From IMG/VR virus record IMGVR_UViG_2802429064_000003: 64,000 bases of DNA; one strand, written 5' to 3'. The stretch's first letter is position 1. The number at the start of each line of letters is the position of its first letter. Under the pieces are notes generated by a model. That model searched no databases. It saw only the letters and a list, made by a program, of their open reading frames with translations, and had not been told where the DNA came from. Source of the stretch: a virus. Shown piece by piece: positions 22,097 to 56,834 of the stretch. Made by a program: the position numbers and the translations under genes.

Positions 22097-22099
22097 CCG

Positions 22100-27029: not shown

Positions 27030-27052
27030 AGTCATTTTGTTTCGTCAAAGCA

Positions 27053-27094
27053 GAAGGCCCCGCCACCATTTCGGTGAGCGGGGCCTTCTTGTTG
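27053..27094. terminator. Bidirectional terminator hairpin between convergent genes (11-bp perfect stem GAAGGCCCCGC/GCGGGGCCTTC)
   Basis: Perfect inverted repeat followed by TTGTTG, located between the convergent stops at 27029 and 27110. Confidence 0.5.
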
Positions 27095-27109
27095 CGCCGG
27101 AAATCCGGC

Positions 27110-27409: not shown

Positions 27410-27447
27410 GGTTTAGGTCCTTTCCTGAGTCGGTTGTCCGAGGCCGA

Positions 27448-27756: not shown

Positions 27757-27819
27757 GTTTTCTCCGATGGTCGTAGCCGATGGGTGATTCCAAGGCAGAT
27801 GGTAGCGCAAAAATCCGCG

Positions 27820-29190: not shown

Positions 29191-29237
29191 GGGGCGCAGG
29201 GTGCCCGGACACGGGCCGAATTATGGCCAGAGGCGCG

Positions 29238-31475: not shown

Positions 31476-31511
31476 ATGCGCTCCACTCGTGGCAGGGACT
31501 GGGCCAGAAAC

Positions 31512-32339: not shown

Positions 32340-32536
32340 AAGTCGGTCTCCTGAAAGATCTCGGTCGAGATGACGCGATATTGCGGCGGAGAGTAGGGCC
32401 CGCAGACCTGGCGCCCGGGCTGCGGCGCGTGCGGCCCGGGGAGTTCTGTTACCGCGTGTGATACCCGCGAATCAAAAGCGGCATCTGTGTATTCTGCGCG
32501 CGTTGGAACGCAGAGATTCGCGAGCGAGGAGAGGCC

Positions 32537-33370: not shown

Positions 33371-33999
33371 CGACAACGATCGAATCAGATGGTGTGACGA
33401 GTCACCAGCGACGGATCAGCGGGCAAGGCCGAACGCAGCTGTTTGACACCGTCGAACGAGCGGCGACTACCGCGCTGGTCGTGGCTGCGCTCACATCAGC
33501 AGATCCGGTGCGGTCCCAAACCTCGCGCAGGGTGTACCCCTTGATCCATTCCGCAGGTGACGGCGCTGGCTCGCGGCGGCGTGCTGGGGCGTTGTCATCC
33601 CTGGTGGCTGACGTTCTGGCGGCGCAATCCGACGACACCGGCGCGGCGCCGGCACTGGCCCTCTCGATGGAAAGGTGGTTGTTGCACCCACATCCGAGCA
33701 CGGCAACTGAACTGACGCGCACAGTGCGCCAATTCGTCGAAGGCTTCGACTCCCCGGATGCCGCCACGCTGGAACTTGCGTGGGTGGCCGGCGCTGGCCT
33801 CGACGATGCCCTCGTCAAACTCCGCGAAAGAGGGTTGAACGGTGATGATGCACAACCACTGTTGAGCCTCATCGCTGCTGCCGTTGAGTTGACCGTGCCC
33901 ATGGTCTGGGTAGCCCGAACCCTCGGCGTGCCCCGGGACCAGATTTATCGCCGCACCCGCGGAATCGATCGCGAGGCCTGGCGTGCACTTTTGCCGTAG
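33367..33999 (+). CDS. Hypothetical protein (GTG start in a GTGA overlap with the protease stop)
   Basis: Coupled to the protease gene. The C-terminus is possibly HTH-like. Weak evidence. Confidence 0.4.
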   Translation: MTTTIESDGVTSHQRRISGQGRTQLFDTVERAATTALVVAALTSADPVRSQTSRRVYPLIHSAGDGAGSRRRAGALSSLVADVLAAQSDDTGAAPALALSMERWLLHPHPSTATELTRTVRQFVEGFDSPDAATLELAWVAGAGLDDALVKLRERGLNGDDAQPLLSLIAAAVELTVPMVWVARTLGVPRDQIYRRTRGIDREAWRALLP

Positions 34000-34061
34000 C
34001 AGCTCGGCGTGTCGCCCCATCACAGTTGGTCCTGGCGCGAAACCGTTGGACAGTGACGCCG

Positions 34062-34078
34062 TTCTCTAAAACAGAAAA
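34062..34078. promoter_or_regulatory. Operator/promoter palindrome, variant TTCTCTAAAACAGAAAA
   Basis: Located 22 nt upstream of the ATG at 34100. Confidence 0.55.
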
Positions 34079-34099
34079 TAACAGCAAGTGGGAGTGCGG

Positions 34100-35104
34100 A
34101 TGACATCGACCTTGTGCCTGGAATCGAGGCCAACTGGGCTGGTTCCGAGCGAAGATGTGAGGGCAGAGCCCTCGTCAGATGCGCGCGAAGACGCGCGCTC
34201 GGCGAAGTTCAGCCGAGATGCCGTCCGGTACCTCCTGGAGTACATCGCTGCGAATGGTCACGCGCATATCCCGCGTGACTATGTGTGCGCAGATGGCTTC
34301 CAACTCGGTGCACGGTCCAACAACTGGCGGCGGCGAAAGATCAGTCCGGAGTTCATAGCGAGGCTTGACCGCGTGAAGCTCTGGCGGTGGACTGCCGAAG
34401 AAGCGCGATGGGACGCCCGCTTTGCGCTACTAACGGAATACATACAGGAACACGGTGACGCACGTCCGCCCGCCAGATGGCGCTCGGTTGATGGATTCCG
34501 TCTCGGCGGCTGGGTTGCCCGTCAGCGCGCCTTGTATCGTGAAGGTCATCTCGATCCGGATCGCACGGCTCGGTTAGAGGAGTGCCCCGGTTGGGTCTGG
34601 GAGCACCCGACGAACTTGCGATGGGCCGAGGCTTACAAACTGCTCTGCCGATACGTGGACGAGCATGGGACTGCAGCTGTTCCCTTGTCATACACCCACT
34701 CCGAGGGATACAGGCTCGGGGATTGGGCCGCCGCCCAGCGGTACTACTTCAAGACCGGAAGTATGAGCAAGGAACGAGCCCAGCTGCTCGAATCGCAGCC
34801 AGGGTGGTCTTGGACACGAGAATCAGCACGCTCAGATGAGCAGTGGGAGTGTGGATTCAATCATCTGCTCTGGCTTGTCGGACAGACAGGCTTCGCTGAT
34901 GTCCCCGCTGGGTATCGCACTCCAGATGGATTCCGGCTGGGACCATGGGCGTACTCGCAAAGGTCCCAGCAGCGCGACGGAACGCTAGATCCAGAAAGAG
35001 CTGCACGCCTCAACGCGATACCCGGATGGACCTGGCACATCGAGCCGAGCCGCAAAATTGCTCCACCGTATTCCACGCTGGTGTCCGCAGGAGCTTCGTC
35101 GTGA
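34100..35104 (+). CDS. Helicase-associated (HA) domain repeat protein (4-5 HA repeats, no helicase core)
   Basis: Repeated W..W...F..L..Y...HGH..VP......GF.LG.W...QR......L...R...L...PGW.W units. GGGAGTG RBS. Confidence 0.6.
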   Translation: MTSTLCLESRPTGLVPSEDVRAEPSSDAREDARSAKFSRDAVRYLLEYIAANGHAHIPRDYVCADGFQLGARSNNWRRRKISPEFIARLDRVKLWRWTAEEARWDARFALLTEYIQEHGDARPPARWRSVDGFRLGGWVARQRALYREGHLDPDRTARLEECPGWVWEHPTNLRWAEAYKLLCRYVDEHGTAAVPLSYTHSEGYRLGDWAAAQRYYFKTGSMSKERAQLLESQPGWSWTRESARSDEQWECGFNHLLWLVGQTGFADVPAGYRTPDGFRLGPWAYSQRSQQRDGTLDPERAARLNAIPGWTWHIEPSRKIAPPYSTLVSAGASS

Positions 35105-38100
35105 AAGGGCATGTCAAGGCCACCACCGTGCCCGCTCCAAAACTGCGTGTGAGGCCACCAAATCCACTTCGCCAACACCAGATCGACGCCCTCACGGCTG
35201 TGCAGACCGACGTGGCGCGTCAACAGCTCATCATGGCGTGCGGAACAGGGAAGACACTGACCGGCCAGCATGCCGTGGCCAAGCTACTGGGCGAGCAACC
35301 CGGAACAGTCCTGGTTCTGGTTCCGACACTTAGCCTGTTGGAGCAGACGTTCCAGGCATGGGCCGCGTATGCTCCGTTCGGATTCGACTCGATCGCCGTA
35401 TGCTCTAAGTTGACCCCTGCTGAAAAGCGAAGCGTCGGTACAGAGGATGACACTGATACCGGTCAGCTTGCGTTGGCAGCCACAACCGAACCAGCGGAGC
35501 TCGCGGACTTCCTGGCTGGCCAAGAACGGACGACGCGGGTCGTGTTCGGCACCTACCAGTCACTCGACACAGTGATCGCTGCCCATGCCGATCACGGCGC
35601 AGAGCCGTGGAGCGTGGTCGTCTGCGATGAAGCGCATCGCACCGCAGGAGCCAAGGCCAAGCCGTTCGCGCGAGCGCTTCACGATGAGTTCGTGCCGGCG
35701 CGCCGGCGACTGTTCCTGACAGCAACGCCGCGTGTGCATACCGTGTCGGAGAAGGAATCAGGGTCGGAGAAATCCACGTTGCTGGCGTCGATGGATGACG
35801 AAACGCTCTACGGCAAGCAGGTTTATACCCTGTCGGTGGCCGAAGCGATTGAGAAGAACATTCTGTCGCAGTACCGCGTCGCGGTAATCGGTGTAGAGGA
35901 TGCGGAATTACAAGCCGCGGTGCGGACGCTCGAAACGGTGAAGGTAGCAGGAAGCGACCTGTCGCTTGATCACGTCGCATCGATCGTGGCGCTGTCGAAG
36001 GCGGCGCAGCAATACGGACTGCAGGCGATCATCGCCTTTTTCAACAGCATCAAGTCCAGCAAGAGTTTCCGTGACGCCTTCAACACGGTTCACGAAAGTC
36101 GCGTTGGTGAGCACCTTGCCGAAGGGGTTGCCGAACACATCGACGGCGCCATGAAATTAGAGAAACGCCGTGCTGCTCTGACACGGCTAGCGCAGAATCG
36201 CGACAATGGTTTCTACCTCGTATCTAACGCACGGTGCTTGTCTGAGGGTATTGACGTACCGGTTTTGGACGCAGTCTTCTTCGGGGAGCCTCGCAGCAGC
36301 CAGATCGAGGTCGTGCAGTGCGTCGGCCGCGCGATCCGCAAGAACCCCCGTCACGACAATCCGGCGCTGATTGTGATTGGGGTGCGCATCGGGGCCGGTG
36401 AGGACATCGAAGCGGCAGTCGACGAGTCGCAGTTCAAGAAGATTCGACAGGTTATCGCGGCGTTGTCCGACCACGACCCACGCATCGCCGAGGCCGCCCG
36501 CGTTCTGGCCCGAAGCGGAGGATCCAACCCGGACGATTCGGTCCACGAGAAAACCGACTGGGCCAAAGATCTTCTTGCATTGGAGGTCCCGGAGGCACTG
36601 CTGCATAACGGGTTCGGGCTGCGGATGCTGGACGTTAGAAATCGAGACTGGGAGAAGCGGTTCGCGCAAGTTTCTCAACACGCTCAACGTACCGGAAACG
36701 TGATTTTTGCAAATACGGACCCATGCGGCAGCTGGATAAACAAGCAGCGCATGAAATTCCGTGAAGGAAGACTACCAGTGGAACGTAGTAGGCGGCTTGA
36801 GTCCCTGCCTGGATGGAGCTGGGATGTACTTACTGATCAATGGGAGATGCGCTTTGTAGAAGTTTCTCGACGGGCTCAACGTGTTGGAACCGTGGCGTTT
36901 CCACACGGAAGCCCGCAGAGTGCGTGGGTGACCAATCAGCGCAAAGCGTTCAGTGACGGAAGGCTACCAGTGGAACGTAGTAGGCGGCTTGAGTCCCTGC
37001 CTGGATGGAGCTGGGATGTACTTACTGATCAATGGGAGATGCGATTCGCGGAGGCCTCTCAACGCGCTCAACATGTTGGCAACCTGGCAGTTTCGAGAAA
37101 CCAGCCACTAGGTAAATGGATAGCTAATCAGCGTCGGCGTTTCCACACTGGTTCACTTTGTGCTGAACGAATCAAGCGGCTTGAGTCGCTGCCAGGGTGG
37201 AGCTGGGATGTACTTACTGATCGGTGGGAGAAGATGTTTGTGGAGGTTTCTAGACATGCTCACCTCAGGGGCAACGTGACATTTCCAAGCAAAGATCCGC
37301 GAGGTACTTGGGTAACTAAACAGCGCAAATCCTTCCGCGCCGGCACGCTGTCTGCCGAACGCATCAAGCGTCTAGAGGCTCTGGCCGGCTGGAGTTGGGA
37401 TGTGATCTCGGCTCAGTGGGAGAAGATGTTTGTGGAGGTTTCTAGACATGCTCACCTCAGGGGCAACGTGACATTTCCAAGCAAAGATCCTCGGCAGGTG
37501 TGGGTATCCCAGCAGCGGACAACGCACCTCCGTGCGGGCACGTTGTCTCTTGAACGCATCAAGCGGCTTGAGTCGCTGCCCGGGTGGAGTTGGGATGTGA
37601 TCTCGGCTCAGTGGGAGCAGCGGTTTGCGGAGGTTTCTAGACATGCTCACCTCACGGGCAACGTGACATTTCCAAGCAACGATCCTCGGATGCTATGGGT
37701 ATACACGCAGCGGAAGTCTTTTCAGGTCAACAAGCTTTCTGCTGAACGAATTAAGCGGCTTGAGTCGCTGCCCGGGTGGAGTTGGGATGTACTCACCGAT
37801 CAATGGGAGCAGATGTTCGAGGTGATTCACCACCATTCCCGTCTAACCGGGCGGATTGCGTTTGATAGAAGGGACACACGCACGTACTGGATTCAGGTTC
37901 AGCGCCAACGTTTCCGTGCGGGCACCTTGTCTCCTGAACGCATCAAGCGTCTAGAGGCTCTGTCCGGTTGGACCTGGGATGTTCTCGCCGACCAGTGGGA
38001 GCAAAGTTACGCCGAAGTATGTCGTTACGCTGAGCGCACCGGCAACGTGACTTTTCCGGACAGGAACCCCCTGCGAAGCTGGGTAAGTCGGCAGCGCAGA

Positions 38101-46672: not shown

Positions 46673-47523
46673 TGAGCGGTATCGACTTCACAACCCGGGA
46701 CGGCAGCGCGTCCGTCCGAGGCGCCGAACGACCATATGGCGCTGCGCTGGCTGCGCGACTCACGGCGGCGATTCTGGAGCTCGACGGGCAGCGCACGCAG
46801 GAGCGCAATCGCCGCATCTTGCCGGACATCTTTTTCCGGCAGGCCGCCTTCAACGACCAAAGCGCTGGTTGCACTACATCATTGACCGACGCCTTCACCT
46901 ACTGGGCGCCGATGGCTGGGAAGATGTATGAGGAGGGGTCGGCGGACATTCGTATCGGAGATAAGACCGAGCGCCCCGATGGGTTCGTCATCAACACCGC
47001 GGTGGTTGCGGGCAGCGACCCGATCGCACTTCTGACCCGCATTCACGCCTACTCAGAGGAGGGGCTGCTGGTCGGGGGAATGGACCGATCCTGGCTCGCG
47101 GGAATCATTGACGACGGACTGCAGGCATACATCCTGCGCGACAAATCCGGGTGGGAGGGCGCCGCTGAACTGCTCCGGTCGGACAGTCGTAGCCCCGCGA
47201 TCATCACCACCAGTCAAGGCGTTTCCCTTTCGTGGTTGCAAGGCGCTGCGGCCGGCTTCTACGCCGACGGCCAAAGCGACCAAGAGCGTTGGGCCGCCGA
47301 AAAAGCCTTCGACGCCCTTTCAGGGGCAGAGCAGTGGGACTGCTCCATCAGCGCACTTCTGGAGGAGCGCCGGCCAGACGCGAGCTGGTGGCTCATGCTC
47401 GATCCGGAGACTTTTCATAAGCCGTCACATCTCGGGCTACTTACGGCCTTCGACGCGATCGAAGCCGACACTGCAGCCCAGAAGGCCGAGAAGGACCGGC
47501 GGGCTGAAGGAGTAGTGCAGTGA
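46669..47523 (+). CDS. Hypothetical protein
   Basis: ATGA-coupled ORF. Confidence 0.5.
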   Translation: MMSGIDFTTRDGSASVRGAERPYGAALAARLTAAILELDGQRTQERNRRILPDIFFRQAAFNDQSAGCTTSLTDAFTYWAPMAGKMYEEGSADIRIGDKTERPDGFVINTAVVAGSDPIALLTRIHAYSEEGLLVGGMDRSWLAGIIDDGLQAYILRDKSGWEGAAELLRSDSRSPAIITTSQGVSLSWLQGAAAGFYADGQSDQERWAAEKAFDALSGAEQWDCSISALLEERRPDASWWLMLDPETFHKPSHLGLLTAFDAIEADTAAQKAEKDRRAEGVVQ

Positions 47524-47762
47524 CCGATCGGCTGCCCGCGCGGTGGGATTCGCAGCCGTTGGCGACGGCGCTGGAGGTGATGGCCGCTTCTGGACCGGCA
47601 GAAGGCCGCTTGCGATTCGATTTCGGACAAGCCGGTTCGGTGGGACTGAGTCTGCACCTCAATCCGACCAAGCTCAGCCGAGGAGCCTCTGACGCACTTC
47701 TTGCTCAGATCGCGCAGCTGTCGCTTTTGGCGGCCAAGTCGACGCAGCAGGTCATCGGATAG
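47520..47762 (+). CDS. Small hypothetical protein
   Basis: Coupled ORF. Confidence 0.4.
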   Translation: MTDRLPARWDSQPLATALEVMAASGPAEGRLRFDFGQAGSVGLSLHLNPTKLSRGASDALLAQIAQLSLLAAKSTQQVIG

Positions 47763-47846
47763 CTCCGATGTGTACGCCCAACTGGTGCGCGCGGTGCTCA
47801 TCTCTCGATAGGTGATGACACGGGGTCGCGCCCTTCACCGTTGATA

Positions 47847-47863
47847 TTCTCTAAAATAGAGAA
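47847..47863. promoter_or_regulatory. Operator/promoter palindrome TTCTCTAAAATAGAGAA (perfect arms)
   Basis: Immediately followed by the -10-like TATAGT. 14 nt to the ATG at 47877. Confidence 0.65.
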
Positions 47864-47876
47864 TATAGTGGGACGT

Positions 47877-48590
47877 ATGGGTACTGCTGTCGTCACTCAC
47901 CAGGGGCGCCGATTCACGGTGGAAACCTATGTCGACCCCTACCCGGGCAAGGCGGCGACAGATCGCATCTGCTGGACCGAGACATGTGGCCGGTGCGGCG
48001 GTAGCGGAATCTTCACCTGGTGGACCAGCACCGGCCAGGCGGGTGGAACCTGCTTCGGCTGCGACGGAGCCGGACGCGTGTCGCGCAGTCGTGCTGTGTC
48101 GATGTTCCGTCGCGATGCACGCCTGGAGGCGCTGTTCCGTGAGCACGGACAGCAGCTGGCCGACGAAGCAGCGGCGGCTGCACAGGCGGCTGAAACCGCG
48201 AGACGTGCCGCCGAATTCGACTGGGCGTGGGAAGCAGCGCATGCCGAGCAGGAGCGTCGCGCCGTCCTGAACAACACTCCGGCTGGAACAGAAGGGGAGC
48301 GTCTGCGCGATCTGGAGGCCTCGGTGACCGTCTCGGCTGGCTTCGAACGCACCGGTTACACCGGCCATACCGAGTACGTGAAGATCGTTGTGTTAACGCT
48401 GGAGACCGGTCAGGTACTCATGTGCAAGGGAACTGCCAGCTGCCTGTACGACGTAGGTCGCGGCGATCGTGTGAAGATCACCGGAACAGTGTGCGGAACC
48501 GGCATGTACCGAGGCCAGCTACAGACCGTATTGCAGCGGCCGAAGATCACGGTGATTGAGCGCGCCGACGCGGGAGATGCGAGCCGTTGA
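47877..48590 (+). CDS. Hypothetical protein with a DnaJ-type CxxCxGxG zinc-finger-like segment
   Basis: Start moved to the ATG downstream of the operator. CWTETCGRCGGSGIF...CFGCDGAGRV. Confidence 0.5.
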   Translation: MGTAVVTHQGRRFTVETYVDPYPGKAATDRICWTETCGRCGGSGIFTWWTSTGQAGGTCFGCDGAGRVSRSRAVSMFRRDARLEALFREHGQQLADEAAAAAQAAETARRAAEFDWAWEAAHAEQERRAVLNNTPAGTEGERLRDLEASVTVSAGFERTGYTGHTEYVKIVVLTLETGQVLMCKGTASCLYDVGRGDRVKITGTVCGTGMYRGQLQTVLQRPKITVIERADAGDASR

Positions 48591-49159
48591 AAGGAAATCC
48601 TGAAGACGCTGTGATCGCCGAGATCAACGCGTTGGAAGCCGACGATTTGATCGACAGTCAGCTAGCCGCGGGCGAGACTAGGCCGGGGCGTGTACCGGCA
48701 TGCCGATGTGGTGCGCCCTGGCATGGCCTGCCCCGCGGCGGCTGCCCTGGAAGCCACGTGGCAGGGGAACTCGAACTATCGGAGGAACGCGCCGGAGAGA
48801 TCTACATTGACGAGCACTACGAGTTGCGCGCGAGTCACGGCCCGATGCAGGTCATTCCGAGCACCTTTGCGTCGGGCCCACCCGTGGACGATCCTGAGTC
48901 AGCTATGCGCCGATTCATTGATGACGTGCACCGAATGGCCGAGGAGATGGCTAGCCGCGCCGGCGCGTCGGATCCGATGGTGATCATCAGTGGGTACGGC
49001 TCTCCGATGGATCAGCTCTTGGCTGTGGGTGGTGATCATGCGTCGCGCTTTCGCCTACCTCCGCGGCAGGGCCTGACGATGGATGGGGCGAGAACAGAAG
49101 AGCGCCGCCGGTCATGGCAGCAGCGATTGCGCCGGTTGTTTCGTTCTGGATCGGGCTAG
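48587..49159 (+). CDS. Hypothetical protein
   Basis: Coupled ORF. Confidence 0.45.
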   Translation: MKGNPEDAVIAEINALEADDLIDSQLAAGETRPGRVPACRCGAPWHGLPRGGCPGSHVAGELELSEERAGEIYIDEHYELRASHGPMQVIPSTFASGPPVDDPESAMRRFIDDVHRMAEEMASRAGASDPMVIISGYGSPMDQLLAVGGDHASRFRLPPRQGLTMDGARTEERRRSWQQRLRRLFRSGSG

Positions 49160-49236
49160 TCGGTCTGCCGCGGCGATCCGCCACGCCGAAGGTCGATGAC
49201 GCGCAATTCGCCACGGTTCCGTGTTGAGCTTGATTC

Positions 49237-50034
49237 ATGGACATCGCACCGGGTCGACGCGCCGACGTACACATGTGGGTGACTAGCCATCAATACGGCA
49301 GCGGCACTGCGCGTATTCAGACATTCCGCGATCGGGAAGGGCGCGACATCGCGTTGATCACGCTCCGCGATGGGGACGTCGATCCGGGCCCCCACTTGGC
49401 AGCCGTGGAGTACCAGAGATGCGCTTGGCACGACTTCTTCCCTGAGTCGCCTCGGCCACCGATCCTGATCTTCAACCTGTTGGGTTCGAAGGCCGCGTTC
49501 GATGCGGAACGGGAAGTAATCATCACTGAGTTCGACACTGACGGAAGGTATCTGGGCCTCACCGATATTTCCCAGCATGACCTCATCGTGCTGAATCAGC
49601 TCGGAGCCGAATGGGATGAAGGCACTGGCTTTGTTCCGTTGCAATATCCGCCAGTCGCGCACTTGGAGGTTCTTCGGCAGGTTGCTGTGTGTGAACTCCC
49701 GGAGGGCGATCTGTTCCGCGATATGAACGAGTTTATGACCGTTGACTGGGCCGCTGCAGTGTCCGTGGCTGTGGAGTGCCTGTCGTCCGGATCGAAATTC
49801 CCGCCCGACCTTCCGACACATGTTCCGCGCGACCTCGCGAAAGCCGCACAGTCGTTTTGGCGCAAGCCCATCCGACTCATTGTCGAGCCGGGTGAGCCGC
49901 CACGCTTTGGCAACGGACAGCACAGGGCTGAAGCTCTGCGTCGACAGAACGCCACGGTCGCGATCATGCTGGACACACGGCTGGTCGACTCCGAACCACT
50001 TTCCGGCGAGATCAGGATCGCCAACGAGCTTTAA
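49237..50034 (+). CDS. Hypothetical protein, possibly ParB/Srx-like (GNGQHR)
   Basis: A single motif, FGNGQHRAEALRR, resembles the ParB N-terminal nuclease domain. Weak evidence. Confidence 0.45.
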   Translation: MDIAPGRRADVHMWVTSHQYGSGTARIQTFRDREGRDIALITLRDGDVDPGPHLAAVEYQRCAWHDFFPESPRPPILIFNLLGSKAAFDAEREVIITEFDTDGRYLGLTDISQHDLIVLNQLGAEWDEGTGFVPLQYPPVAHLEVLRQVAVCELPEGDLFRDMNEFMTVDWAAAVSVAVECLSSGSKFPPDLPTHVPRDLAKAAQSFWRKPIRLIVEPGEPPRFGNGQHRAEALRRQNATVAIMLDTRLVDSEPLSGEIRIANEL

Positions 50035-50061
50035 CTCGAGGACATGACGTCGCTCCCAGGG

Positions 50062-51894
50062 TCAGTACCCCGCGTACTTTTCGGTTTGCGCGTACGCGCG
50101 TAGCGGTCGCGATACACCGGTCGAGCGGCGAACCAGCAGCATCTTTCCAGAACCGTCCCAGCCCGATGGCGGAAGCTGAACCGCATCATCGCCCATGAGC
50201 ATTACCGCGTCGTCGTGGGTTGGCTTGGAGGTCAGCAGCACCGTCGAGCACAAGTCGAGCCACCGAGGCGGGAATCTCTCCTCGTTATCCAGTGTCAGGG
50301 TGATCAGCACCAGGTGGAGACCCAGTTTGCGGCCAGTGGACAGCAGTTCTGTAACTAGGGTGTGTAGCTCTTCGCGTTGTGCCGCATCGAAGTAAGCCCA
50401 CAGTGCGTCGTCAAGCGCCAAGAGCTCGGGCTTGTGGAGTTTCGGACTGGCACGGCGCATCTCTATCTCTGCGTGAATTCCCCTGATTTGGTCGAGAACC
50501 GCGTCCGGATCTTTCCGCGAATTTAGGTGTCTGGCACCCCACCGGTTAGTGGCTAGCGCGTCCCGCACCAACCCTCGCACCAACATCGATTTACCGCGGC
50601 CTGCGCCGCCGAATACCAGCAAGTGGCCATCCATAGCGGGGGTGTAGGGGACTGGCTCACCGGTGGCGTCCAGACCGAGTGGAAACGCCGCCCACGAGGT
50701 CAGTGTCGTCGACACCGTCGGCAGCGGATGTGGTGATGGTGCGGGGAGCCGTTCCATCTCGCGCGCCAGCTGGGCTGCGGCGATGAACTGGGCGTTGTTG
50801 GTGGTGGTTTCAAACGATTTCAGCTGTCGGTTGGGCAATGTCACGGTGCGATCGGGGTTCAATGACACGTCGCCGCGACTGAGCGCACCAAGGACTATCG
50901 TGCTGGCCGCTGACAGCGCCGTGTGGAGTTGGTCGAACAAGGCACTGAGGGACATGACACCGCCGGCGTCTGCGACGATCGCGGCGACATCGGCACTTTC
51001 ATCGGGCCAGTAGTCATTGAGTGGGTCCGCATCGTTCGCCTGCACCTGTGGCTTCGTCGATTGCGGCGGCCACAGTTTCAGTATCGGCTCGCCCCAATGG
51101 CTCCCTGCCAGTGTCTCGATCATGCTTCTTGTCTTCGAAGTGTCGGTCGATGCATGCGGTTTCGGTTCCCGAATATCGATTTTCGTCTGTGCGAAGGGGC
51201 TCGGGTCAGTGATCCAGAACCGCAACATTTCGCGCAACCGGCGTGCTTCAGGCTCGCCAGCAGTGTCCAGCCATCGGATCAACGCAGGTAGCGAGTTCAT
51301 TCCTCGCGGGATGCGGAAGTCCTCTGCGAGGATCTTGTCTAGGAACATGGCCTCGGCTGAGGTCGGCTCCCAACCGAACATGGGAAGCAGCTGGGCCAGC
51401 ATGCAAGCCCGGGCGTCGCCTGGTTTCAGTTCAGCCAGCGGGTCGACGTGGCGTACATCTACGCGGTTCACAGAACCGCCCGTGTGCAGTACCTCAGGAA
51501 GCGGTTTCCACGTCCCTTGAACGGAGACTTGTCCGTCTGCCACGACCACGCCAAGAACGTCGCCGCCCTGGTCGAGAATCAGGTCGCCCGGGCGGACGTC
51601 ATTGAGTGCCACCGGTGGCCAGGATGAGTCAGAATTCGAAGGACGCCCGTCGTCGGGGTTGAGAGCGGGGGCCGATCGCTCGGCTGCTTGCGTGAACTCG
51701 TCCAGTACGAGCCGGACGGGGCCATCACCGTCGGTGTCGTTTGGCAGGAACCGCAACGGCTTGGCACCGAGCACGCTTTCCGGAGCATCGATAACGGCAC
51801 GAGCGAAAACACGGGCGTTGTGCAGCGTGAAATCCAGCCGAGCACGCATGAGCGCCTTGGCCAACATTTCGGTGCGATTGGTGGCAGATGCCAT
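50062..51894 (-). CDS. FtsK/SpoIIIE/TraB-like P-loop ATPase (C-terminal), with a large N-terminal domain of unknown function
   Basis: AAGGGAGG RBS before the ATG at 51894. Walker A FGGAGRGKSMLV and Walker B LHLVLITLTLDNEE. Confidence 0.6.
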   Translation of the reverse strand: MASATNRTEMLAKALMRARLDFTLHNARVFARAVIDAPESVLGAKPLRFLPNDTDGDGPVRLVLDEFTQAAERSAPALNPDDGRPSNSDSSWPPVALNDVRPGDLILDQGGDVLGVVVADGQVSVQGTWKPLPEVLHTGGSVNRVDVRHVDPLAELKPGDARACMLAQLLPMFGWEPTSAEAMFLDKILAEDFRIPRGMNSLPALIRWLDTAGEPEARRLREMLRFWITDPSPFAQTKIDIREPKPHASTDTSKTRSMIETLAGSHWGEPILKLWPPQSTKPQVQANDADPLNDYWPDESADVAAIVADAGGVMSLSALFDQLHTALSAASTIVLGALSRGDVSLNPDRTVTLPNRQLKSFETTTNNAQFIAAAQLAREMERLPAPSPHPLPTVSTTLTSWAAFPLGLDATGEPVPYTPAMDGHLLVFGGAGRGKSMLVRGLVRDALATNRWGARHLNSRKDPDAVLDQIRGIHAEIEMRRASPKLHKPELLALDDALWAYFDAAQREELHTLVTELLSTGRKLGLHLVLITLTLDNEERFPPRWLDLCSTVLLTSKPTHDDAVMLMGDDAVQLPPSGWDGSGKMLLVRRSTGVSRPLRAYAQTEKYAGY

Positions 51895-52173
51895 GAGAGG
51901 AGACCTCCCTTTCCGTCGAGCGGTGCGTCCCCGGCCCGCGCCCGCCACGAAAAGGGGAGAGCTGCGTAGAACGCGACCTTCACGAGGTTCTTCGGCCCTT
52001 GCGGAGTCTCGTCAGCCGCCGCCGGGGAGCGGAGCTGGTCGAGAGTCCAGGCGCGGGAGCAGTTCTGGCCCCGTTGCGAAGGTACTTCCAAATTGCGATC
52101 GGACCTAATCGGATGAACTGACGACTCTCGGCGTGTCGCGAGCCGCTGGACGGCTTGTCACCCCAACCATCTA

Positions 52174-52190
52174 TTCTCTAAAATAGAGAA
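52174..52190. promoter_or_regulatory. Operator/promoter palindrome TTCTCTAAAATAGAGAA (perfect arms)
   Basis: Located 16 nt upstream of the ATG at 52207, with an AAAGGCGGGG RBS between. Confidence 0.65.
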
Positions 52191-52206
52191 ATCGAAAGGC
52201 GGGGTA

Positions 52207-52389
52207 ATGGACCTTTGTGAGAACGCTGTCGAACTTGGCTTCACCGCGACCTCGACACCGCGAGAGGTTGTTTCCATCGCGGGCAAGTTGGTGGACGAGC
52301 GCGGCTACTCAGAGTCTGTTTATGACACGACCAGGTCGCTGATGCGCCTTCAGCGTCAGCTCCGCACTGAACAGGCCGGTGCAGCATGA
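52207..52389 (+). CDS. Small hypothetical protein (60 aa)
   Basis: First ORF after the operator. Confidence 0.45.
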   Translation: MDLCENAVELGFTATSTPREVVSIAGKLVDERGYSESVYDTTRSLMRLQRQLRTEQAGAA

Positions 52390-52622
52390 GTCACCTCATC
52401 ACCCAGGCGGACAACGAGTATCGCCTCTATGTTGCGGGTTCCGGCACCGACTGCCTCGCGTATGCCAAGAGTGAAACCGTCGTAGGCGGATCGGAAGGGT
52501 GGCGTGTTCGGCCGCGCGGTATCGCTGAACACCTTGAGGACTTCGTAGTGAAAGACGAAGGTCAAGCGCTCACTGCGCTTAAGGCTCTCGGCCTCGCTTA
52601 TGAGGCCGGAGGTGGGGGATAA
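52386..52622 (+). CDS. Small hypothetical protein (78 aa)
   Basis: ATGA-coupled to the previous ORF. Confidence 0.45.
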   Translation: MSHLITQADNEYRLYVAGSGTDCLAYAKSETVVGGSEGWRVRPRGIAEHLEDFVVKDEGQALTALKALGLAYEAGGGG

Positions 52623-53128
52623 CCCGAACTCGCCCCAAACGCCGAGACGCTGCGGCTCAACGACCGCAATTCGACCGAACAACAGGAGAACAAGGTGGAC
52701 GACCCGTATGCCGCTGAGCGCGAAGAGGCGCGAGCAGCTCGAGCTTCGATGTCCGAGATGGACCGTGCCGCTATGCACCTCGATGCGGATTTGGGGATGT
52801 GCGGGGATCGGGAGGACGCACGAGGGGAGTACTGGTGAACCGCGCGCTAGTGGTCTGCGGTGCCTAGTTGCGATGTCGGCAATTCACTCTGACTTGTCGC
52901 AAACCCCTGTTCCCATCCGGTGTGGAATCCGATCACGAGCAAGGTGATCTCGGCTGGTTTGTATCCGAGTGCGCGGCAGTGGCGCTCGTACTGACTGGTG
53001 GAGTGAATTCGGACTTCTCGCCGGTGCATTGAGACGGCTCCTCCCTGGTGATATGTGCCGAACAAGCTCGCCACGCTCTGTAGTCGAGACAGCTCGATGC
53101 TCAGTTAGGCCGCGCGACCACAAGGCGT

Positions 53129-53752
53129 GTGCGCGCCGCGGTCGGCCCGTGTGTGCTGGGTCTTCCTACGGTCTCGGTCATGAAAGAGTTTCTGCTGCAC
53201 CCGGTGGTGCCGATGGCCCTGCTGGCGGTGTGGACGATGATGTGGTGGCACCAGCGCAAAACGCCGCCGGTTCTACCGAAGATGGACCGCGTCAACGCGC
53301 GCCCGGGTGACCTTTCGCTTGGCGGCTCCACGGCGACATCGAAGACTGAGATGCGTGTGCGCAAGGTGCTCGAAAATGCCGGGTATCGCACCTATCCGCA
53401 GGGGACGCTGATGTGTATGGGACGTGACAGCGCCGGCAAGAACCGCTTTTTCACGCCGGACATCTTGCTGCGCAAGCCGTTCGCGGTGGTGGAAGTCGAT
53501 CCGGCGCACTGGCATGGAGCGCCGGAGAAGGTCGCAGAGGACATCATGCGCAACCGGTTCTATGCGCGACGTGGCCTGCGCGTGATCCGGGTACGCATCG
53601 CGGGTACTCAGGCGCTGGGGCCTAACGACGTCGTGATCGGCGAGTCCGACTTCGATCCCGCCAAACACCGCACTGTTCTGTTGAGGGCAGTGGCCTCAGC
53701 CAAGATGGTTCCGGCGAGCTACTGGACGTCGATGCAGCGGAGAGGGACGTGA
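53129..53752 (+). CDS. DUF559-type endonuclease-like domain protein (Vsr/restriction endonuclease-like fold)
   Basis: FFTPDILLRKPFAVVEVDPAHWHG...DIMRNRFYARRGLRVIRVR fits the DUF559 pattern. Confidence 0.5.
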   Translation: MRAAVGPCVLGLPTVSVMKEFLLHPVVPMALLAVWTMMWWHQRKTPPVLPKMDRVNARPGDLSLGGSTATSKTEMRVRKVLENAGYRTYPQGTLMCMGRDSAGKNRFFTPDILLRKPFAVVEVDPAHWHGAPEKVAEDIMRNRFYARRGLRVIRVRIAGTQALGPNDVVIGESDFDPAKHRTVLLRAVASAKMVPASYWTSMQRRGT

Positions 53753-53847
53753 CATTCAGGCGCTTATCGAGGTCGCGGTAACCCATATTCGCCAGGAGGT
53801 TCCGCTGTTTGTCGGGAATCAGGTCAGAGCCAGCAGTAGGGATAGAA

Positions 53848-54456
53848 CTATCCCGCGTTGAAGTCGCGCAGGGACCGGCACCAATCCAGTTGGTATAGCG
53901 ACGTTGTTCCGTCGAGTGCAGGATCTCGTTGTACTCGGCCGGATCCGTCGGTGAAGTAGGCCAGCTTCGCACCGTCACGGGTGTAGAGCCCTACCGGGCG
54001 ATAGGTCATGAGAGGGAACTGGTCTGCTGACGTGCCGTATTCGTGCAGAGCCGCGTTGTAGCGTTCGACGTCGTACAGCGCGCTCTCTGCCGTGGTGGTG
54101 GTCCCGGTGACTGGCTCTTGTAGCGCGCGTGGATCGCGGCAGGCAGCGGAGAGCGATTTCGATGTCTGTGTGCGAGCCGCGCGCAGATTGGTCACTGCCC
54201 GATCGCGCTTCTCACCAAGATCACGGCTCCGCAACCCATTCACCAGAAATGCGTATTTCAATTCCCCATCTGACACCGTGCTCGTGGCCGATGACGAATG
54301 CGCGACACGGTCATCACGGAGCTGCATGTAGGCCGCACCGCTAATCGCGCCGAGGGAGAACACGGCTACCGCCGTGGCTGCTGGCACCAGCTTTCGGATC
54401 GGAGCATCGCCGAGCTGTCGGAGTCGATTGGAGATCTCGTGGGTCTTGATGCTCAT
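53848..54456 (-). CDS. Hypothetical membrane-anchored protein
   Basis: N-terminal TM helix VPAATAVAVFSLGAISGAAYM. Confidence 0.45.
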   Translation of the reverse strand: MSIKTHEISNRLRQLGDAPIRKLVPAATAVAVFSLGAISGAAYMQLRDDRVAHSSSATSTVSDGELKYAFLVNGLRSRDLGEKRDRAVTNLRAARTQTSKSLSAACRDPRALQEPVTGTTTTAESALYDVERYNAALHEYGTSADQFPLMTYRPVGLYTRDGAKLAYFTDGSGRVQRDPALDGTTSLYQLDWCRSLRDFNAG

Positions 54457-54467
54457 GCGTGGTCCTT

Positions 54468-55460
54468 TCAGGCTGCGGCGGTCGTGGCACAGAATGCGCC
54501 GGCGAAGGCTTCGGCCAACGCCGCGGCGCGCTGGCGGTATTCCTGTCGAGACAGTCCGCTGTCTCCACGCATATACCGGGAAGCAAGGCGCGCCAACGCA
54601 TCAGCACCTTCGTTCAGTGGTTCCCCGCTGTGAGAGCGCACCCAACGGATCTCGACGCGTTCCCGGAGTCGGTGGATACGTCGAAACGCTGAGACTAGTT
54701 CCGCCTCTTCGCCTTCTCCAAGCTCGGTGATGTAGCCGCCAGGCATTACCTGCTCTCCTCTCTGCCAGGCCTTGGCCATCGTGATCGCTGCTTGGCAGTC
54801 GGTGAACAGCGTGATGTGCTCATGTCGTCCCAGACGCCGCAACGCCTCATCGATTCCACGAAGCTCCGATATCAAGACTTTCGATCCTCCATGCATACGA
54901 TTCGAATGCTGGAATCCGCGCAACCCGAAAGCGCCGCTGTCTGCCAACCATCCACAACCGAGGGACGTTTTGCGGACCGACCCATCGGTGGCCACTGTGA
55001 CCGGCGGTAGCAAGGTCTCAGGTGGGCGTGGTTTGGGGGATTTCTTCTTTTCAGGCGCAACGGGGGCGATTTCGTCGAGCACCTGGGCGGCCTCGCCCAT
55101 CAGCAGTCTCACGTACCCCTCGGCGCCGCTGATTACGGTGACGTTCAAGGCCGATTGGATAGCGGTCAGTTGTGCCCGTGCTGCCCAAACGACCCGGGGT
55201 GGGACCATCACCTGTAGGTGACAATGGGTCGGCTGCGTAACCCGCAGAGTCGCAATGACATCGAACAGTGCAGTCTGCAGATTCGGGGACTTCGCGATGC
55301 CCGACCAAGCGCCGGTGGCTGATTTCGCGCAATAGGCGTATCCGCGCCCCGAACCGACGCCACGGAACGCGACCGCGACGGAGGTGGCTCCGGTTGTAGC
55401 GGGCAAGAATTCAGATTCTTCTCGTGTTGACTGGCTTTGGCCGCCATCGTGGATCGTCAT
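54468..55460 (-). CDS. RNase H-like domain protein (C-terminal half)
   Basis: VATDGSVRKTSLGCGWL...ISELRGIDEAL...TLFTDCQAAI match RNase HI catalytic motif positions (DxS...E...D). Confidence 0.55.
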   Translation of the reverse strand: MTIHDGGQSQSTREESEFLPATTGATSVAVAFRGVGSGRGYAYCAKSATGAWSGIAKSPNLQTALFDVIATLRVTQPTHCHLQVMVPPRVVWAARAQLTAIQSALNVTVISGAEGYVRLLMGEAAQVLDEIAPVAPEKKKSPKPRPPETLLPPVTVATDGSVRKTSLGCGWLADSGAFGLRGFQHSNRMHGGSKVLISELRGIDEALRRLGRHEHITLFTDCQAAITMAKAWQRGEQVMPGGYITELGEGEEAELVSAFRRIHRLRERVEIRWVRSHSGEPLNEGADALARLASRYMRGDSGLSRQEYRQRAAALAEAFAGAFCATTAAA

Positions 55461-55600
55461 GGCAGCAGTATTGGAGTGATTGGCCTCACGCTCTCCGCGC
55501 CCGAGACGACACGCCGATGCAGCGGTGGCACGCAGATCTGAGCGCCGGCGTGCGGCTCTTGAGTGGAAAGGCAGCGCGGATTAGCGCTGACAATTGCCCG

Positions 55601-55897
55601 TCATGCCGCGTTGCCTTTAAGGAGCCGTTCAATTTCAGCCGTGGGGATTCGTCGAGATCGTCCGAGTTTCACCGCGTTGACTTCCCCTGAACGAATCAGT
55701 GCGTAGAGATGGGCTCGGCTGATGCAGAGCTGTTTGGCTGCCTCTTCCACGCGATATAGCTTCGGACGATCGGTGGCTGACACAGCGTGTGCCGCGTTGA
55801 CTGCGGGGAATATTGCCGCCAGCTGCTCAACCTGTTCAGGCGAGGCCGAGCGTATCAAGGTGTCCAGCGCCTCGGAAATGGGGTCGTTGTCGCTCAT
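55601..55897 (-). CDS. Excisionase-family/MerR-like HTH DNA-binding protein
   Basis: KLYRVEEAAKQLCISRAHLYALIRSGEVNAVKLGRSRRIP is an HTH_17-type signature (Xis/AlpA-like). Confidence 0.6.
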   Translation of the reverse strand: MSDNDPISEALDTLIRSASPEQVEQLAAIFPAVNAAHAVSATDRPKLYRVEEAAKQLCISRAHLYALIRSGEVNAVKLGRSRRIPTAEIERLLKGNAA

Positions 55898-56186
55898 GAC
55901 TCTGATCGTCTAGGGCGAGTGTGGTGGTCTCCAGTGAGTGGTTCCGACACGCCGAGAAACGGTAGATTCAGAACCGCGGTGCTCCTGGCGGACTCAGGTG
56001 CGATTCGGTGGACACAGGGCGCCGCGTTCTTGTGTCAAACCCCGGTGACCCTACGCAACCTTCGATGACCCACCGATGACCCGTAAGGGTTAGACAAACC
56101 TGTTCTACCTGGACTAATAGTGATATGCTCTGTACTAGCACGCTCGGAATAGACGAGCGTAGACGAACCACGAGGTCACACGCGAG

Positions 56187-56218
56187 GGGTCGCTGGTTCG
56201 AACCCAGCCGGGACCACC
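56187..56218 (+). other. tRNA 3-prime-end-like fragment (T-arm GCTGG-TTCGAAC-CCAGC plus acceptor strand CGGGACC-A): candidate att core or remnant of a tRNA target site. No complete tRNA is present.
   Basis: A perfect T-stem/loop and a 7-nt acceptor strand, but no complementary 5-prime acceptor strand or D-arm within 100 nt upstream. Confidence 0.45.
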
Positions 56219-56834
56219 GTATAAGTACAGGCAGAGGGGTTTTTCTACTCAGCCGAATTCCATGTTAATTAAGAGTGGATTAAGAGCTGACCCACTTATG
56301 ACCCAGTCTGGGTTATCCATCTGAGCTGTTCGCGGCGCTTTAGCGATCGAATGAGGCGTTGCGGCGGAGGGGTCGCTTCCTAAACTCGCGAGAACTGGGC
56401 ACCTCCACCCCGCGGCGTGGGGCGTTGAAATCACAGTACTGACCCCGTCCGCGCTAGCTACACCCAGTCCTGGATGGTGAAGGTTCTCGGTAGTGGGCGT
56501 CCTCTTTTGAGGTCTGAACGTTGCAGCTGGTTGCGTGGCGCCAAGCGGGTGGAGCGGCTGGTCGGTGTTACGCGGTTCCAACGCGATTTCGCTAACCGCT
56601 GCGTAGCGGTGCACATTGACCGAATGATTCGGCGATGGATTCCGTCGAGCATGCTGCGGCGAAAGCAGCTGTGAATTGTCCGGATGCGGGCCTGCCGGGC
56701 GTTGGTCTGGTTCTCGGTGTGGTCCCGCGCCCCTCGCTGACCGTGCGACCTGTGGGTTGTCGTGGCCAAGGAATGGCCATCAACGCCGATCGAAGCGCAG
56801 GGTTCAGCGTTCCGGATCGCTGCGTTGCAGCTCG

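What the first reader, a model, noticed from the sequence alone, without database searches (positions are those of the whole stretch)
56187..56218. tRNA 3-prime-end-like fragment marking a probable att site or mobile-element junction, with an excisionase-family gene just upstream
A T-arm and an acceptor strand are present without the rest of a tRNA. This is the classic footprint of an integrative element whose attachment core overlaps the 3-prime end of a tRNA. Gene content also changes character at this point, from phage-like accessory genes to the exonuclease-BRCT protein, a second DnaQ-like exonuclease, a further integrase and an IS remnant.
Basis: partly seen in the sequence, partly recalled or inferred. 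Interest (0 to 1): 0.5.

Follow-up and report, generated by a model that had tools for sequence, protein, structure and literature searches.

The report
Right-end attachment site of giant element
The tRNA-like fragment is a real integration scar: it is the right-hand junction (attR) left when a mobile element more than 100 kb long, one that carries a 36-gene tRNA array, inserted into the tRNA-Val(CAC) gene of Mycobacteroides abscessus.

Summary
Confirmed. Window 56176-56218 (+) is 43 nt identical to the 3' part of the Mycobacteroides tRNA-Val(CAC) gene, from the anticodon loop to the acceptor end. The window holds no complete tRNA.

Related M. abscessus strains provide the empty site. There an intact tRNA-Val(CAC) is followed by DNA 100% identical (7825/7825 nt) to window 56176-64000, and identity breaks exactly at 56175|56176. 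The fragment is therefore attR, and the inserted element lies to its left.

I followed the element about 103-107 kb leftwards. It carries EccB and an EccC-like ATPase, several FtsK-like ATPases, PolA, NAD-salvage genes and a 36-tRNA array. No phage structural genes were detected, and nothing in the phage or plasmid collections is closely similar.

A second junction type joins the same element end, through the same core, to a different resident island. An arm motif (TGACCC-N4-5-TGACC) flanks the core on both sides. The "native" right flank is therefore the arm of an older small island with its own integrase, so the two elements sit in tandem.

Not reached: attL, with the intact tRNA and second core copy, and the element's own integrase.

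The junction is an ordinary kind of feature. The element behind it is notable, and this site is not in the published list of 29 M. abscessus prophage attB sites.

The parts
56176..56218 (+). Core of attR. It is 43 nt identical to positions about 33-76 of tRNA-Val(CAC): anticodon loop 3' part, anticodon-stem 3' strand, variable loop, T arm, acceptor 3' strand, discriminator and CC.
   Evidence: It is 100% identical to the tRNA in L077, L092 and L112. Identity with the empty site begins at 56176 (alignment A1). Other element copies carry 47-48 nt (L174/L176, L021) or differ by one nt at the left edge (L113).
55898..56175 (+). Element-side arm (P arm) of attR. It contains the arm motif TGACCCACCGATGACC at 56066-56081, CTGTTCTACC at 56100-56109, and the inverted repeat CGCTCG/CGAGCG at 56141-56159.
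   Evidence: It is absent from empty sites. It is 85% conserved in a related junction in a Mycobacterium MAG (L021). The motif occurs only twice in the window against 0.09 expected, and in fetched loci almost only (20 of 22 loci) next to tRNA-Val(CAC) junctions.
55601..55897 (-). Excisionase-family HTH gene (98 aa). It is the last gene of the giant element and a candidate recombination directionality factor.
   Evidence: Pfam HTH_17 gives 46.9 bits and TIGR01764 gives 48.7 bits against a cut-off of 28.8. It is 36% identical to the HTH protein that sits next to the integrase at the matching end of the Tsukamurella relative. It has no relative by sequence in the PDB.
1..55600 (.). Right-hand 56 kb of the giant integrative element. 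Genes include NAMPT, NUDIX, two WhiA-like genes, SF2 helicases (two with HA repeats), PolA, an SLT transglycosylase, FtsK/AAA ATPases, SPFH and an RNase H-domain protein.
   Evidence: Pfam and PHROG scans. It is collinear with the Tsukamurella element. It is absent from empty-site strains. No megablast hit in phages for window 54000-58600 or in plasmids for window 40000-64000.
56219..56310 (+). Arm of the resident island B directly after the core. It contains TTTTTCTAC at 56240-56248 and the arm motif TGACCCACTTATGACC at 56288-56303.
   Evidence: The same sequence follows the intact tRNA at empty sites and in M. franklinii. It shares the motif with the element arm and with the attL arm of L130.
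56311..62157 (.). Island B, an older small island. Genes: DEDDh exonuclease with a BRCT-like region at 56835-58505 (-), 203 aa (-), 181 aa (+), DnaQ-like exonuclease at 59743-60351 (+), and a tyrosine integrase at 60949-62157 (-).
   Evidence: Pfam and NCBIfam scans. It is present at empty and occupied sites alike. It is absent from other M. abscessus strains, where other DNA follows the tRNA. The integrase is 51-58% identical (tblastx) to an integrase next to tRNA-Val(CAC) in L130 and 34% identical to the Tsukamurella element integrase.
63194..64000 (-). DUF347 membrane protein gene, part of the chromosomal flank.
   Evidence: Pfam DUF347. It has the same neighbours (two-component system, MarR) in all strains.

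Best explanation
Window 56176-56218 is the core of attR, the right junction made when a very large integrative element recombined with the 3' part of the chromosomal tRNA-Val(CAC) gene of Mycobacteroides abscessus. The recombination was site-specific and presumably carried out by a tyrosine integrase.

The element occupies window 1-56175 and continues beyond the window start. I followed it for at least about 103-107 kb. Outside the window it carries a 36-gene tRNA array with an HNH endonuclease, EccB and an EccC-like triple-FtsK ATPase.

The crossover took place inside the 43-48 nt shared by the element's attP and the tRNA. The left arm of the junction is therefore element DNA, containing one copy of the TGACCC-N5-TGACC tandem motif (a candidate arm-type integrase site). 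Everything from the core rightwards is what already lay downstream of the tRNA.

In this strain that downstream DNA is itself an older small island of the same integrase family (two exonucleases plus an integrase). The two elements therefore sit in tandem at one tRNA.

Inferred, not shown:
- The intact tRNA is rebuilt at the far (attL) end.
- The element's own integrase sits there. In the circular form the order would be HTH - attP - int, as in the Tsukamurella relative where the HTH gene and int are adjacent.
- The 98-aa excisionase-family protein next to attR directs excision.
For: - The fragment is identical to the 3' part of tRNA-Val(CAC), and the window has no full tRNA.
- Empty sites (L112, L114, L116, L119) have an intact tRNA followed by DNA 100% identical over 7825 nt to window 56176-64000 (L119 has one mismatch). 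Occupied sites (L113, L115, L117, L118) look like the window.
- The breakpoint is exactly at 56175|56176.
- In L174/L176 (plus 7 further contigs) the same element end is joined through the same core to the arm of a different resident island (Rce1/DPPIV/DUF1963). In other strains that island directly follows the intact tRNA.
- Element copies that differ by about 5% over their last 4.5 kb sit next to the identical flank.
- The arm motif occurs only at 56066 and 56288 in the window (0.09 expected). In other loci it lies next to tRNA-Val(CAC) junctions in 20 of the 22 that carry it.
- The adjacent gene is excisionase-family.
- A collinear relative in Tsukamurella tyrosinosolvens ends with an HTH homologue followed by a tyrosine integrase, then chromosomal genes.
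- The element extends leftwards through EccB/EccC, the tRNA array and beyond.
- The element-specific 17-nt motif still occurs left of the lone tRNA-Arg.
Against: - attL was never seen. No second copy of the core and no intact tRNA-Val(CAC) was found in the about 103-107 kb followed leftwards.
- No full-length integrase was found in that stretch. There is only a 152-aa integrase-like fragment in L165.
- The leftward walk was stitched from several strains, and the element is mosaic (IS, mer and RtcB insertions). A rearranged or decayed left end cannot be excluded.
- Present-day excision or transfer is not shown.
Confidence: 0.88

Rival explanations
1. The fragment is attP of a free (unintegrated) phage or plasmid genome, and the DNA on both sides belongs to one replicon.
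For: The excisionase-family gene is adjacent. An integrase lies 4.7 kb to the right. No complete tRNA exists in 64 kb.
Against: The right-hand DNA is 100% identical to what follows the intact chromosomal tRNA in strains lacking the left-hand DNA. It runs on into ordinary chromosomal genes: DUF347, a two-component system and nitrite reductase. The same left arm is also found joined to a different chromosomal neighbour. No phage or plasmid record matches.
Confidence: 0.02
2. The fragment marks the tRNA-proximal end of the element on its RIGHT (exonucleases plus integrase). Read this way, the change of gene content means the mobile element is the right-hand block.
For: The right-hand block is a variable island with its own integrase. 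It carries the arm motif and is absent from many M. abscessus strains.
Against: That block is present unchanged next to the INTACT tRNA at empty sites. It therefore cannot explain why the tRNA is truncated here. Only the left-hand DNA is what differs between the intact and truncated states. This reading is partly true as a description of tandem accretion, but it is not the cause of the fragment.
Confidence: 0.07
3. The fragment is a decayed tRNA pseudogene or a chance tRNA-like sequence, or part of a larger structured RNA, and has nothing to do with integration.
For: Only a fragment is present. tRNA-like pieces are common in GC-rich genomes.
Against: It is a 43/43 match to the host tRNA with zero chance expectation. 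There is no Rfam family across the region. The breakpoint is precise and the presence/absence polymorphism sits on an otherwise identical background.
Confidence: 0.01
4. The junction is real but the element is now a fixed, immobile remnant. Its left end has been lost or rearranged, so no matching attL exists. The strain polymorphism would then come from homologous exchange of the whole region between strains rather than from integration and excision.
For: attL and an integrase were not found in about 105 kb. The element is riddled with IS and transposon insertions. M. abscessus is known for large recombination tracts (PMC4756508).
Against: Two different downstream partners are joined precisely within the tRNA core. 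Diverged element variants occupy the same site. The arm and the excisionase-family gene are intact and conserved.
Confidence: 0.15

Closest known systems
Tyrosine-integrase prophage attachment sites of M. abscessus (attB-1 to attB-29; Dedrick et al. 2021 PMC8092301; Amarh et al. 2023 PMC9934374; PMC10654092)
   Same: [quoted passage not shown] The common core falls in the published 25-76 bp range, and a partial tRNA copy is left at the distal junction.
   Different: tRNA-Val(CAC) is not among the 29 listed sites. The only tRNA-Val site, attB-20, is tRNA-Val(TAC) with a different core. The occupant is not a recognisable phage: no structural genes were detected in the proteins scanned, and no match was found in 50,697 phage records. 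It is two to three times the size of those prophages.
tRNA array units of Mycobacterium genomes, group G2 (Morgado & Vicente 2018, PMC5966550)
   Same: The element contains a roughly 12-kb array of 36 tRNA genes with an embedded HNH endonuclease. This matches the chromosomal arrays reported as common in the M. abscessus complex.
   Different: That study examined 2-kb flanks and reported no sign of recent integration. Here the array lies inside an element with a defined right junction at tRNA-Val(CAC) and matching empty sites.
Giant linear plasmids with a tRNA array in M. avium (pS2b type; Yano et al. 2026, PMC12803027) and pCBMA213_1
   Same: They have a tRNA array with HNH, EccB/EccC-type ATPases, cell-wall hydrolases and no relaxase. 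Transfer via FtsK-like translocases has been proposed for them.
   Different: They are extrachromosomal, 270-440 kb, and only 30-34% identical in the EccC-like protein. The element here is integrated in the chromosome.
Integrated element in Tsukamurella tyrosinosolvens NCTC13231 (record NZ_LR134455.1, labelled 'plasmid 13')
   Same: It is collinear over more than 100 kb: PolA 66-72% in the best tblastx segments, EccB/EccC 56-67%, helicases, WhiA, and the HTH next to the end. It also lies inside chromosomal DNA.
   Different: Its end carries a tyrosine integrase directly after the HTH gene. ARAGORN finds no tRNA at the junction. The record stops before the other end.
Actinomycete integrative and conjugative elements such as pSAM2 (from my own knowledge; cited in PMC12803027)
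   Same: It works alike. An int/xis module targets a tRNA 3' end, and an FtsK-like translocase is thought to move double-stranded DNA.
   Different: AICEs are 9-25 kb. This element is over 100 kb, has T7SS-like EccB/EccC and a tRNA array, and its transfer has not been tested.

Membership tests
att junction of a tRNA-targeting tyrosine-recombinase integrative element | [quoted passage not shown] | tested here: met
   43/43 nt identity to Mycobacteroides tRNA-Val(CAC).
att junction of a tRNA-targeting tyrosine-recombinase integrative element | Related strains have an empty site with an intact tRNA and the same flank, and the breakpoint falls inside the tRNA | tested here: met
   L112, L114, L116 and L119 compared with L113, L115, L117, L118 and the window. 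The flank is 100% identical and the break is at 56175|56176.
att junction of a tRNA-targeting tyrosine-recombinase integrative element | A second, direct copy of the core with the intact tRNA lies at the other end (attL) in the same genome | tested here: inconclusive
   It was not found in about 103-107 kb followed leftwards.
att junction of a tRNA-targeting tyrosine-recombinase integrative element | The element encodes a tyrosine integrase near one end | tested here: inconclusive
   None was found in the part seen. The collinear Tsukamurella relative has one next to the HTH homologue. The shared arm motif points to the family of the island-B and L130 integrases.
att junction of a tRNA-targeting tyrosine-recombinase integrative element | An excisionase / recombination directionality factor is present | tested here: met
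   This holds at domain level only: HTH_17 and TIGR01764 above cut-off. Function is not testable with these tools.
att junction of a tRNA-targeting tyrosine-recombinase integrative element | Repeated arm-type sites flank the core | tested here: met
   TGACCC-N4-5-TGACC occurs at 56066 and 56288 only (0.09 expected). It recurs at related junctions. Binding is not testable.
Prophage | Virion structural and packaging genes (capsid, portal, terminase, tail) | tested here: not met
   The Pfam and PHROG scans of 20 larger window proteins in the element (1-52 kb) and 10 L165 proteins gave none. The only hits were a tape-measure-like lytic (SLT) domain, a weak P-loop match to terminase/DnaC families, and minor-tail-like hits on an NlpC/P60 domain protein in L165. 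No phage record matched. Not every gene was scanned.
tRNA array unit-bearing giant plasmid-like element of Mycobacteriales | Dense array of 20 or more tRNA genes with an embedded HNH endonuclease | tested here: met
   36 tRNAs in about 12 kb, with HNH, on the same contigs as window genes.
tRNA array unit-bearing giant plasmid-like element of Mycobacteriales | T7SS/FtsK-type transfer ATPases | tested here: met
   EccB and an EccC-like 1426-aa protein. FtsK-domain proteins at window 39382-41442 and 50062-51948.
tRNA array unit-bearing giant plasmid-like element of Mycobacteriales | Autonomous extrachromosomal replicon | tested here: not met
   It is integrated, with chromosomal DNA directly to the right. 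No plasmid record matched at DNA level.

The most novel reading that the evidence does not exclude
The fragment is the right border of a chromosomally integrating, possibly self-transmissible, form of the giant tRNA-array plasmids of Mycobacteriales. This element would be about 105-175 kb and would use a tRNA-Val(CAC)-specific integrase family to stack onto smaller islands at the same tRNA. That would explain how the 'chromosomal' tRNA arrays, thought to be anti-defence cargo, spread among clinical M. abscessus lineages. A bolder variant is that the giant element has no integrase of its own near its ends and is integrated and excised in trans by integrases of resident islands of the same family.
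Probability: 0.35. Interest if true: 0.65.

Novelty: new member of a known kind. Interest (0 to 1): 0.45.

Why it matters
A tRNA-end direct repeat at an integration junction is textbook biology, so the finding itself is ordinary. Three things give it value:

1. It pins down one border and the insertion site of the large accessory region that carries the M. abscessus tRNA array. Published work described that array as chromosomal with no sign of integration (PMC5966550). A 2026 paper still calls the genomic location of such arrays unclear (PMC12803027).
2. tRNA-Val(CAC) emerges as a hot spot at which at least four or five different elements are found, including tandem stacks. Yet it is missing from the catalogue of 29 prophage attB sites used to build integration vectors.
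3. It gives a simple marker for scoring the presence of this element (at least about 103 kb) in clinical isolates: the junction sequence compared with the intact tRNA.

Tried and rejected
- **DNA searches with no result.** Megablast of the junction region against phages and of window 40000-64000 against plasmids found nothing. The sensitive blastn search of the junction against plasmids also found nothing. Against phages, the core gave only generic T-arm hits.
- **Exact-pattern scans with no result.** IMG/VR was scanned for the full tRNA and for the element arm plus core. JGI metagenomes were scanned for two conserved arm segments. All four scans returned nothing.
- **Look-up with a wrong start codon.** The first window ORF was not on record.
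- **Reaching attL from the chromosomal side.** I used three variants of the CN-hydrolase gene next to the tRNA cluster. These returned empty sites and other occupants, but not this element's left end. The variants available to me seem to come from element-free genomes.
- **Walking left from the window.** This covered about 47-51 kb beyond the window start.
- **First left-end hypothesis, now doubtful.** I thought the Amidase_6/Prim-Pol element next to the intact tRNA (L132, L133, L140) might be the left end. The basis was contig-length arithmetic: 79 kb + about 60 kb = 139 kb. I now doubt it for three reasons. Its tRNA-side arm equals that of the small Rce1/DPPIV island. The k=31 contigs cross the tRNA without breaking, which suggests no second core copy in those genomes. 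It has no homology to the Tsukamurella relative.
- **Second left-end hypothesis, unverified.** L130 (tRNA-Val followed by a 399-aa integrase) fits the HTH-attP-int order of the Tsukamurella relative. No sequence links it to this element.
- **Island B's integrase as the element's only integrase.** This is unlikely, because the element also occurs next to a different island without island B adjacent.
- **A tRNA-like stretch upstream of the island-B integrase (62180-62215).** No supporting tRNA and no Rfam hit were found.
- **The luciferase/ACAD block left of the array as chromosome.** It is an IS256-linked insertion inside the element.

Full report
**1. The observation**

The 32-mer at 56187-56218 occurs once in the window. 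No dinucleotide shuffle produced a match even with three mismatches. ARAGORN finds no tRNA gene anywhere in the 64 kb, and Rfam finds nothing at gathering score. At a permissive threshold the only hit on the fragment is to an RNA antisense to a tRNA T arm.

An exact scan of one genome per species returned 111 loci. In the 31 loci I scanned with ARAGORN, the sequence is the 3' end of tRNA-Val(CAC) in 26, or a tRNA-less copy in five. The organisms include Mycolicibacterium, Mycobacteroides, Rhodococcoides, Williamsia and Gordonia.

The match to Mycobacteroides tRNAs is perfect over 43 nt, window 56176-56218. It starts at T33 of the anticodon loop and ends with the CC after the discriminator.

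**2. The host and the empty site**

Look-ups of proteins encoded in the window place it in Mycobacteroides abscessus. The exact 402-aa integrase of window 60949-62157 occurs in two kinds of contig.

- In L112, L114, L116 and L119 an intact tRNA-Val(CAC) lies between the exonuclease gene and a tRNA-Gly/Cys/Val(GAC) cluster plus a CN-hydrolase gene.
- In L113, L115, L117 and L118 there is no tRNA. The excisionase-family and RNase H-domain genes of the window follow instead.

Window 56176-64000 is 7825/7825 identical to the empty-site strains L112, L114 and L116. In the alignment, identity with the empty site begins exactly at 56176. To the left, the window has element DNA where the empty site has the 5' half of the tRNA.

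This makes the fragment attR. The insertion lies to its left, and the DNA to its right is what was already downstream of the tRNA.

**3. What was inserted**

Window 1-56175 encodes:
- NAMPT and a NUDIX protein
- two WhiA-like proteins
- several SF2 helicases, two of them with helicase-associated (HA) repeats; these explain the 192-nt tandem repeats at 36.8-38.2 kb
- a family A DNA polymerase, 37-40% identical to actinophage Pol I
- an SLT transglycosylase
- FtsK/AAA ATPases and an SPFH protein
- an RNase H-domain protein
- at the very end, a 98-aa HTH_17/TIGR01764 excisionase-family protein

The scans of 20 larger window proteins in the element (1-52 kb) and 10 L165 proteins detected no virion genes. 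Megablast of the junction region and of window 40000-64000 found no phage or plasmid record.

Walking left through overlapping contigs gave, in order:
- Macro, PRTase, RyR, an FtsK-like protein, GmrSD and LppX
- an EccC-like 1426-aa ATPase and EccB
- an HNH endonuclease inside an array of 36 tRNA genes
- about 12 kb of small genes
- a lone tRNA-Arg(CCT)
- a further 10 kb

An element-specific 17-nt palindrome, TTCTCTAAAAYAGAGAA, occurs six times in the window (two copies with one mismatch). It also occurs left of the tRNA-Arg, so the element continues there.

The stretch followed from attR is about 103-107 kb, stitched from several strains. The 526-aa gene left of the array and an occupied attR appear to share one 1.72-Mb contig. 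This is inferred from equal contig lengths.

Element copies differ by insertions: IS110, IS256 with a luciferase/ACAD block, RtcB, and a mer operon with IS21.

**4. Evidence for site-specific integration rather than a fixed remnant**

- A look-up of the 98-aa protein found a second junction type in L174/L176 and seven similar contigs. The same element arm and core are joined to the arm of a different resident island (Rce1-like/DPPIV/DUF1963). In other strains that island directly follows the intact tRNA and ends in its own 48-nt tRNA repeat.
- In the second junction type the tRNA-derived stretch is 47-48 nt, four more (CGCC) than in the window. L113 differs from the window by one nt at the same edge.
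- Element copies that are about 5% diverged over their last 4.5 kb sit next to the identical right flank.
- The motif TGACCC-N4-5-TGACC occurs only twice in the 64 kb, against 0.09 expected by chance. One copy ends 95 nt left of the core (56066-56081). The other starts 70 nt right of it (56288-56303). Both are on the + strand.
- Among all fetched loci, 20 of the 22 that carry the motif have it beside a tRNA-Val(CAC) junction; the two others (L098, L105) have it 2-6 kb from the tRNA core. One of these is the attL arm of L130, where a 399-aa integrase directly follows the intact tRNA.

The right-hand copy of the motif belongs to island B (56219 to about 62157: two DEDDh exonucleases, two unknown genes and the 402-aa integrase). 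Island B is absent from many M. abscessus strains. The window junction is therefore a hybrid: giant-element arm, core, island-B arm. This is tandem accretion at one tRNA.

At least four or five different occupants of this tRNA were seen. The neighbouring tRNA-Val(GAC) is also used.

**5. The relative in Tsukamurella**

The closest match outside M. abscessus is the record NZ_LR134455.1, labelled 'plasmid 13' of T. tyrosinosolvens NCTC13231. Its EccC-like protein is 60% identical and its PolA 65% identical by tblastn.

Its first 120.7 kb are plainly chromosomal: cob genes, lnt, rbpA, uvrA, icd and katG. A tyrosine integrase follows, then an HTH gene, then at least 143 kb collinear with the M. 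abscessus element up to the end of the record.

- The HTH protein is 36% identical to the window's 98-aa protein.
- The integrase is 34% identical to the island-B integrase and 39% to the L130 integrase.
- No tRNA lies at that junction.

So the family is integrative. In the relative, the integrase sits where the tRNA fragment sits in the window. The simplest reading is that in M. abscessus attP lies between the HTH gene and int, so that int ends up at attL. This is an inference.

**6. What remains open**

attL, the intact tRNA in a carrier genome, and the element's integrase were not reached. Two candidate left ends, L130 and the L132/L133/L140 element, could not be linked by sequence. My contig-length argument for the second is weakened by the flank comparison. 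A decayed or rearranged left end is therefore not excluded. Excision and transfer are untested.

**7. Comparison with what is known**

Integration at a tRNA 3' end with a 25-76 bp core is standard for M. abscessus prophages (PMC8092301). However, tRNA-Val(CAC) is not among the 29 catalogued attB sites. attB-20 is tRNA-Val(TAC), with a different core.

The tRNA array corresponds to the chromosomal arrays reported as common in the M. abscessus complex. The authors of that report saw no sign of integration in 2-kb flanks (PMC5966550).

Giant linear plasmids with such arrays and EccB/EccC were described in M. avium in 2026 (PMC12803027). They are only 30-34% identical in the EccC-like protein.

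I found no paper in the held library that defines the integration site of the M. abscessus element.

**8. Verdict**

The correction is that the fragment is the right junction of a plasmid-like element of at least about 103 kb lying to its left. It is stacked onto an older small island of the same integrase family on its right. The junction is an ordinary kind of feature. The element and the hot spot behind it are of moderate interest.

Noticed in passing
window 4430(-), 12918, 34062, 41646, 47847, 52174; also L150 7041/8080, L120 19967, L165 2954, L169 15394, L171 10849: A 17-nt palindromic motif, TTCTCTAAAAYAGAGAA, recurs mostly just upstream of + strand genes across the giant element. Copies with 1-2 mismatches occur in the Tsukamurella relative. 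It looks like an operator or promoter element of the family.
   Followed up: partly
L154-L161 (about 20-32 kb left of window start), e.g. L155 5538-17104: An array of 36 tRNA genes in about 12 kb, with an embedded HNH endonuclease, lies on the same element. It matches the published 'tRNA array unit' of M. abscessus.
   Followed up: partly
window 10-2285 and L120 6600-10654: A cluster of Macro domain, phosphoribosyltransferase, RyR domain, NAMPT and NUDIX genes. It is an NAD-salvage set of the kind seen in anti-defence modules of large mobile elements.
   Followed up: no
window 36758-38169, inside ORF 34945-38205 (+): The 192-nt tandem repeats are eight helicase-associated (HA) domain repeats in a 1086-aa SF2 helicase. 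A second HA-repeat helicase lies at 42562-45885.
   Followed up: yes
window 12957-13910 (-) and 15810-16841 (-): Two WhiA-like genes are carried by the mobile element. The Tsukamurella relative also has one.
   Followed up: no
L170-L173 (NZ_LR134455.1): The record labelled 'plasmid 13, circular' of T. tyrosinosolvens NCTC13231 contains 120 kb of housekeeping genes. It is most likely a chromosomal contig with an integrated giant element.
   Followed up: yes
L124/L127 11035-19230; L142 11023-20831: The neighbouring tRNA-Val(GAC) is also an insertion site. One occupant is a 9-kb satellite-like element (integrase, HTH_17, D5 primase, capsid, GmrSD). Another is a prophage-like element with a tape-measure gene.
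   Followed up: no
L129, L135, L139, L141, L143-145 (about 11300-19440): A 6.4-8 kb island (Rce1-like, DPPIV peptidase, DUF1963) without an integrase is bounded by the intact tRNA-Val(CAC) and a 48-nt repeat of its 3' end. Its tRNA-side arm equals that of a much larger Amidase_6/Prim-Pol element (L133, L140), so it may be a deletion remnant of that element.
   Followed up: partly
L165 9689-9762 (about 37.5 kb left of window start): A lone tRNA-Arg(CCT) lies inside the element. At least five assemblies fetched here (and others collapsed as similar) start contigs there, which suggests that an identical copy exists elsewhere in those genomes.
   Followed up: partly
window 62180-62215 (-): A stretch shaped like a tRNA 3' end (T-arm-like hairpin plus a 7-nt strand) lies 23 nt upstream of the island-B integrase start. 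No fetched tRNA has this end and Rfam finds nothing, so it may be chance.
   Followed up: partly
window 21560-21603: A perfect 22-nt tandem duplication. Several independent assemblies end their contigs near window 21.1-21.4 kb (contig lengths).
   Followed up: no
L152 13518-20423; L158-161 1127-6666: Cargo differs between copies of the element. One copy has a mer operon (MerR, MerA, MerB) with IS21 inserted in the LppX gene. Another has an IS256-linked luciferase/NMT1/acyl-CoA dehydrogenase block.
   Followed up: partly
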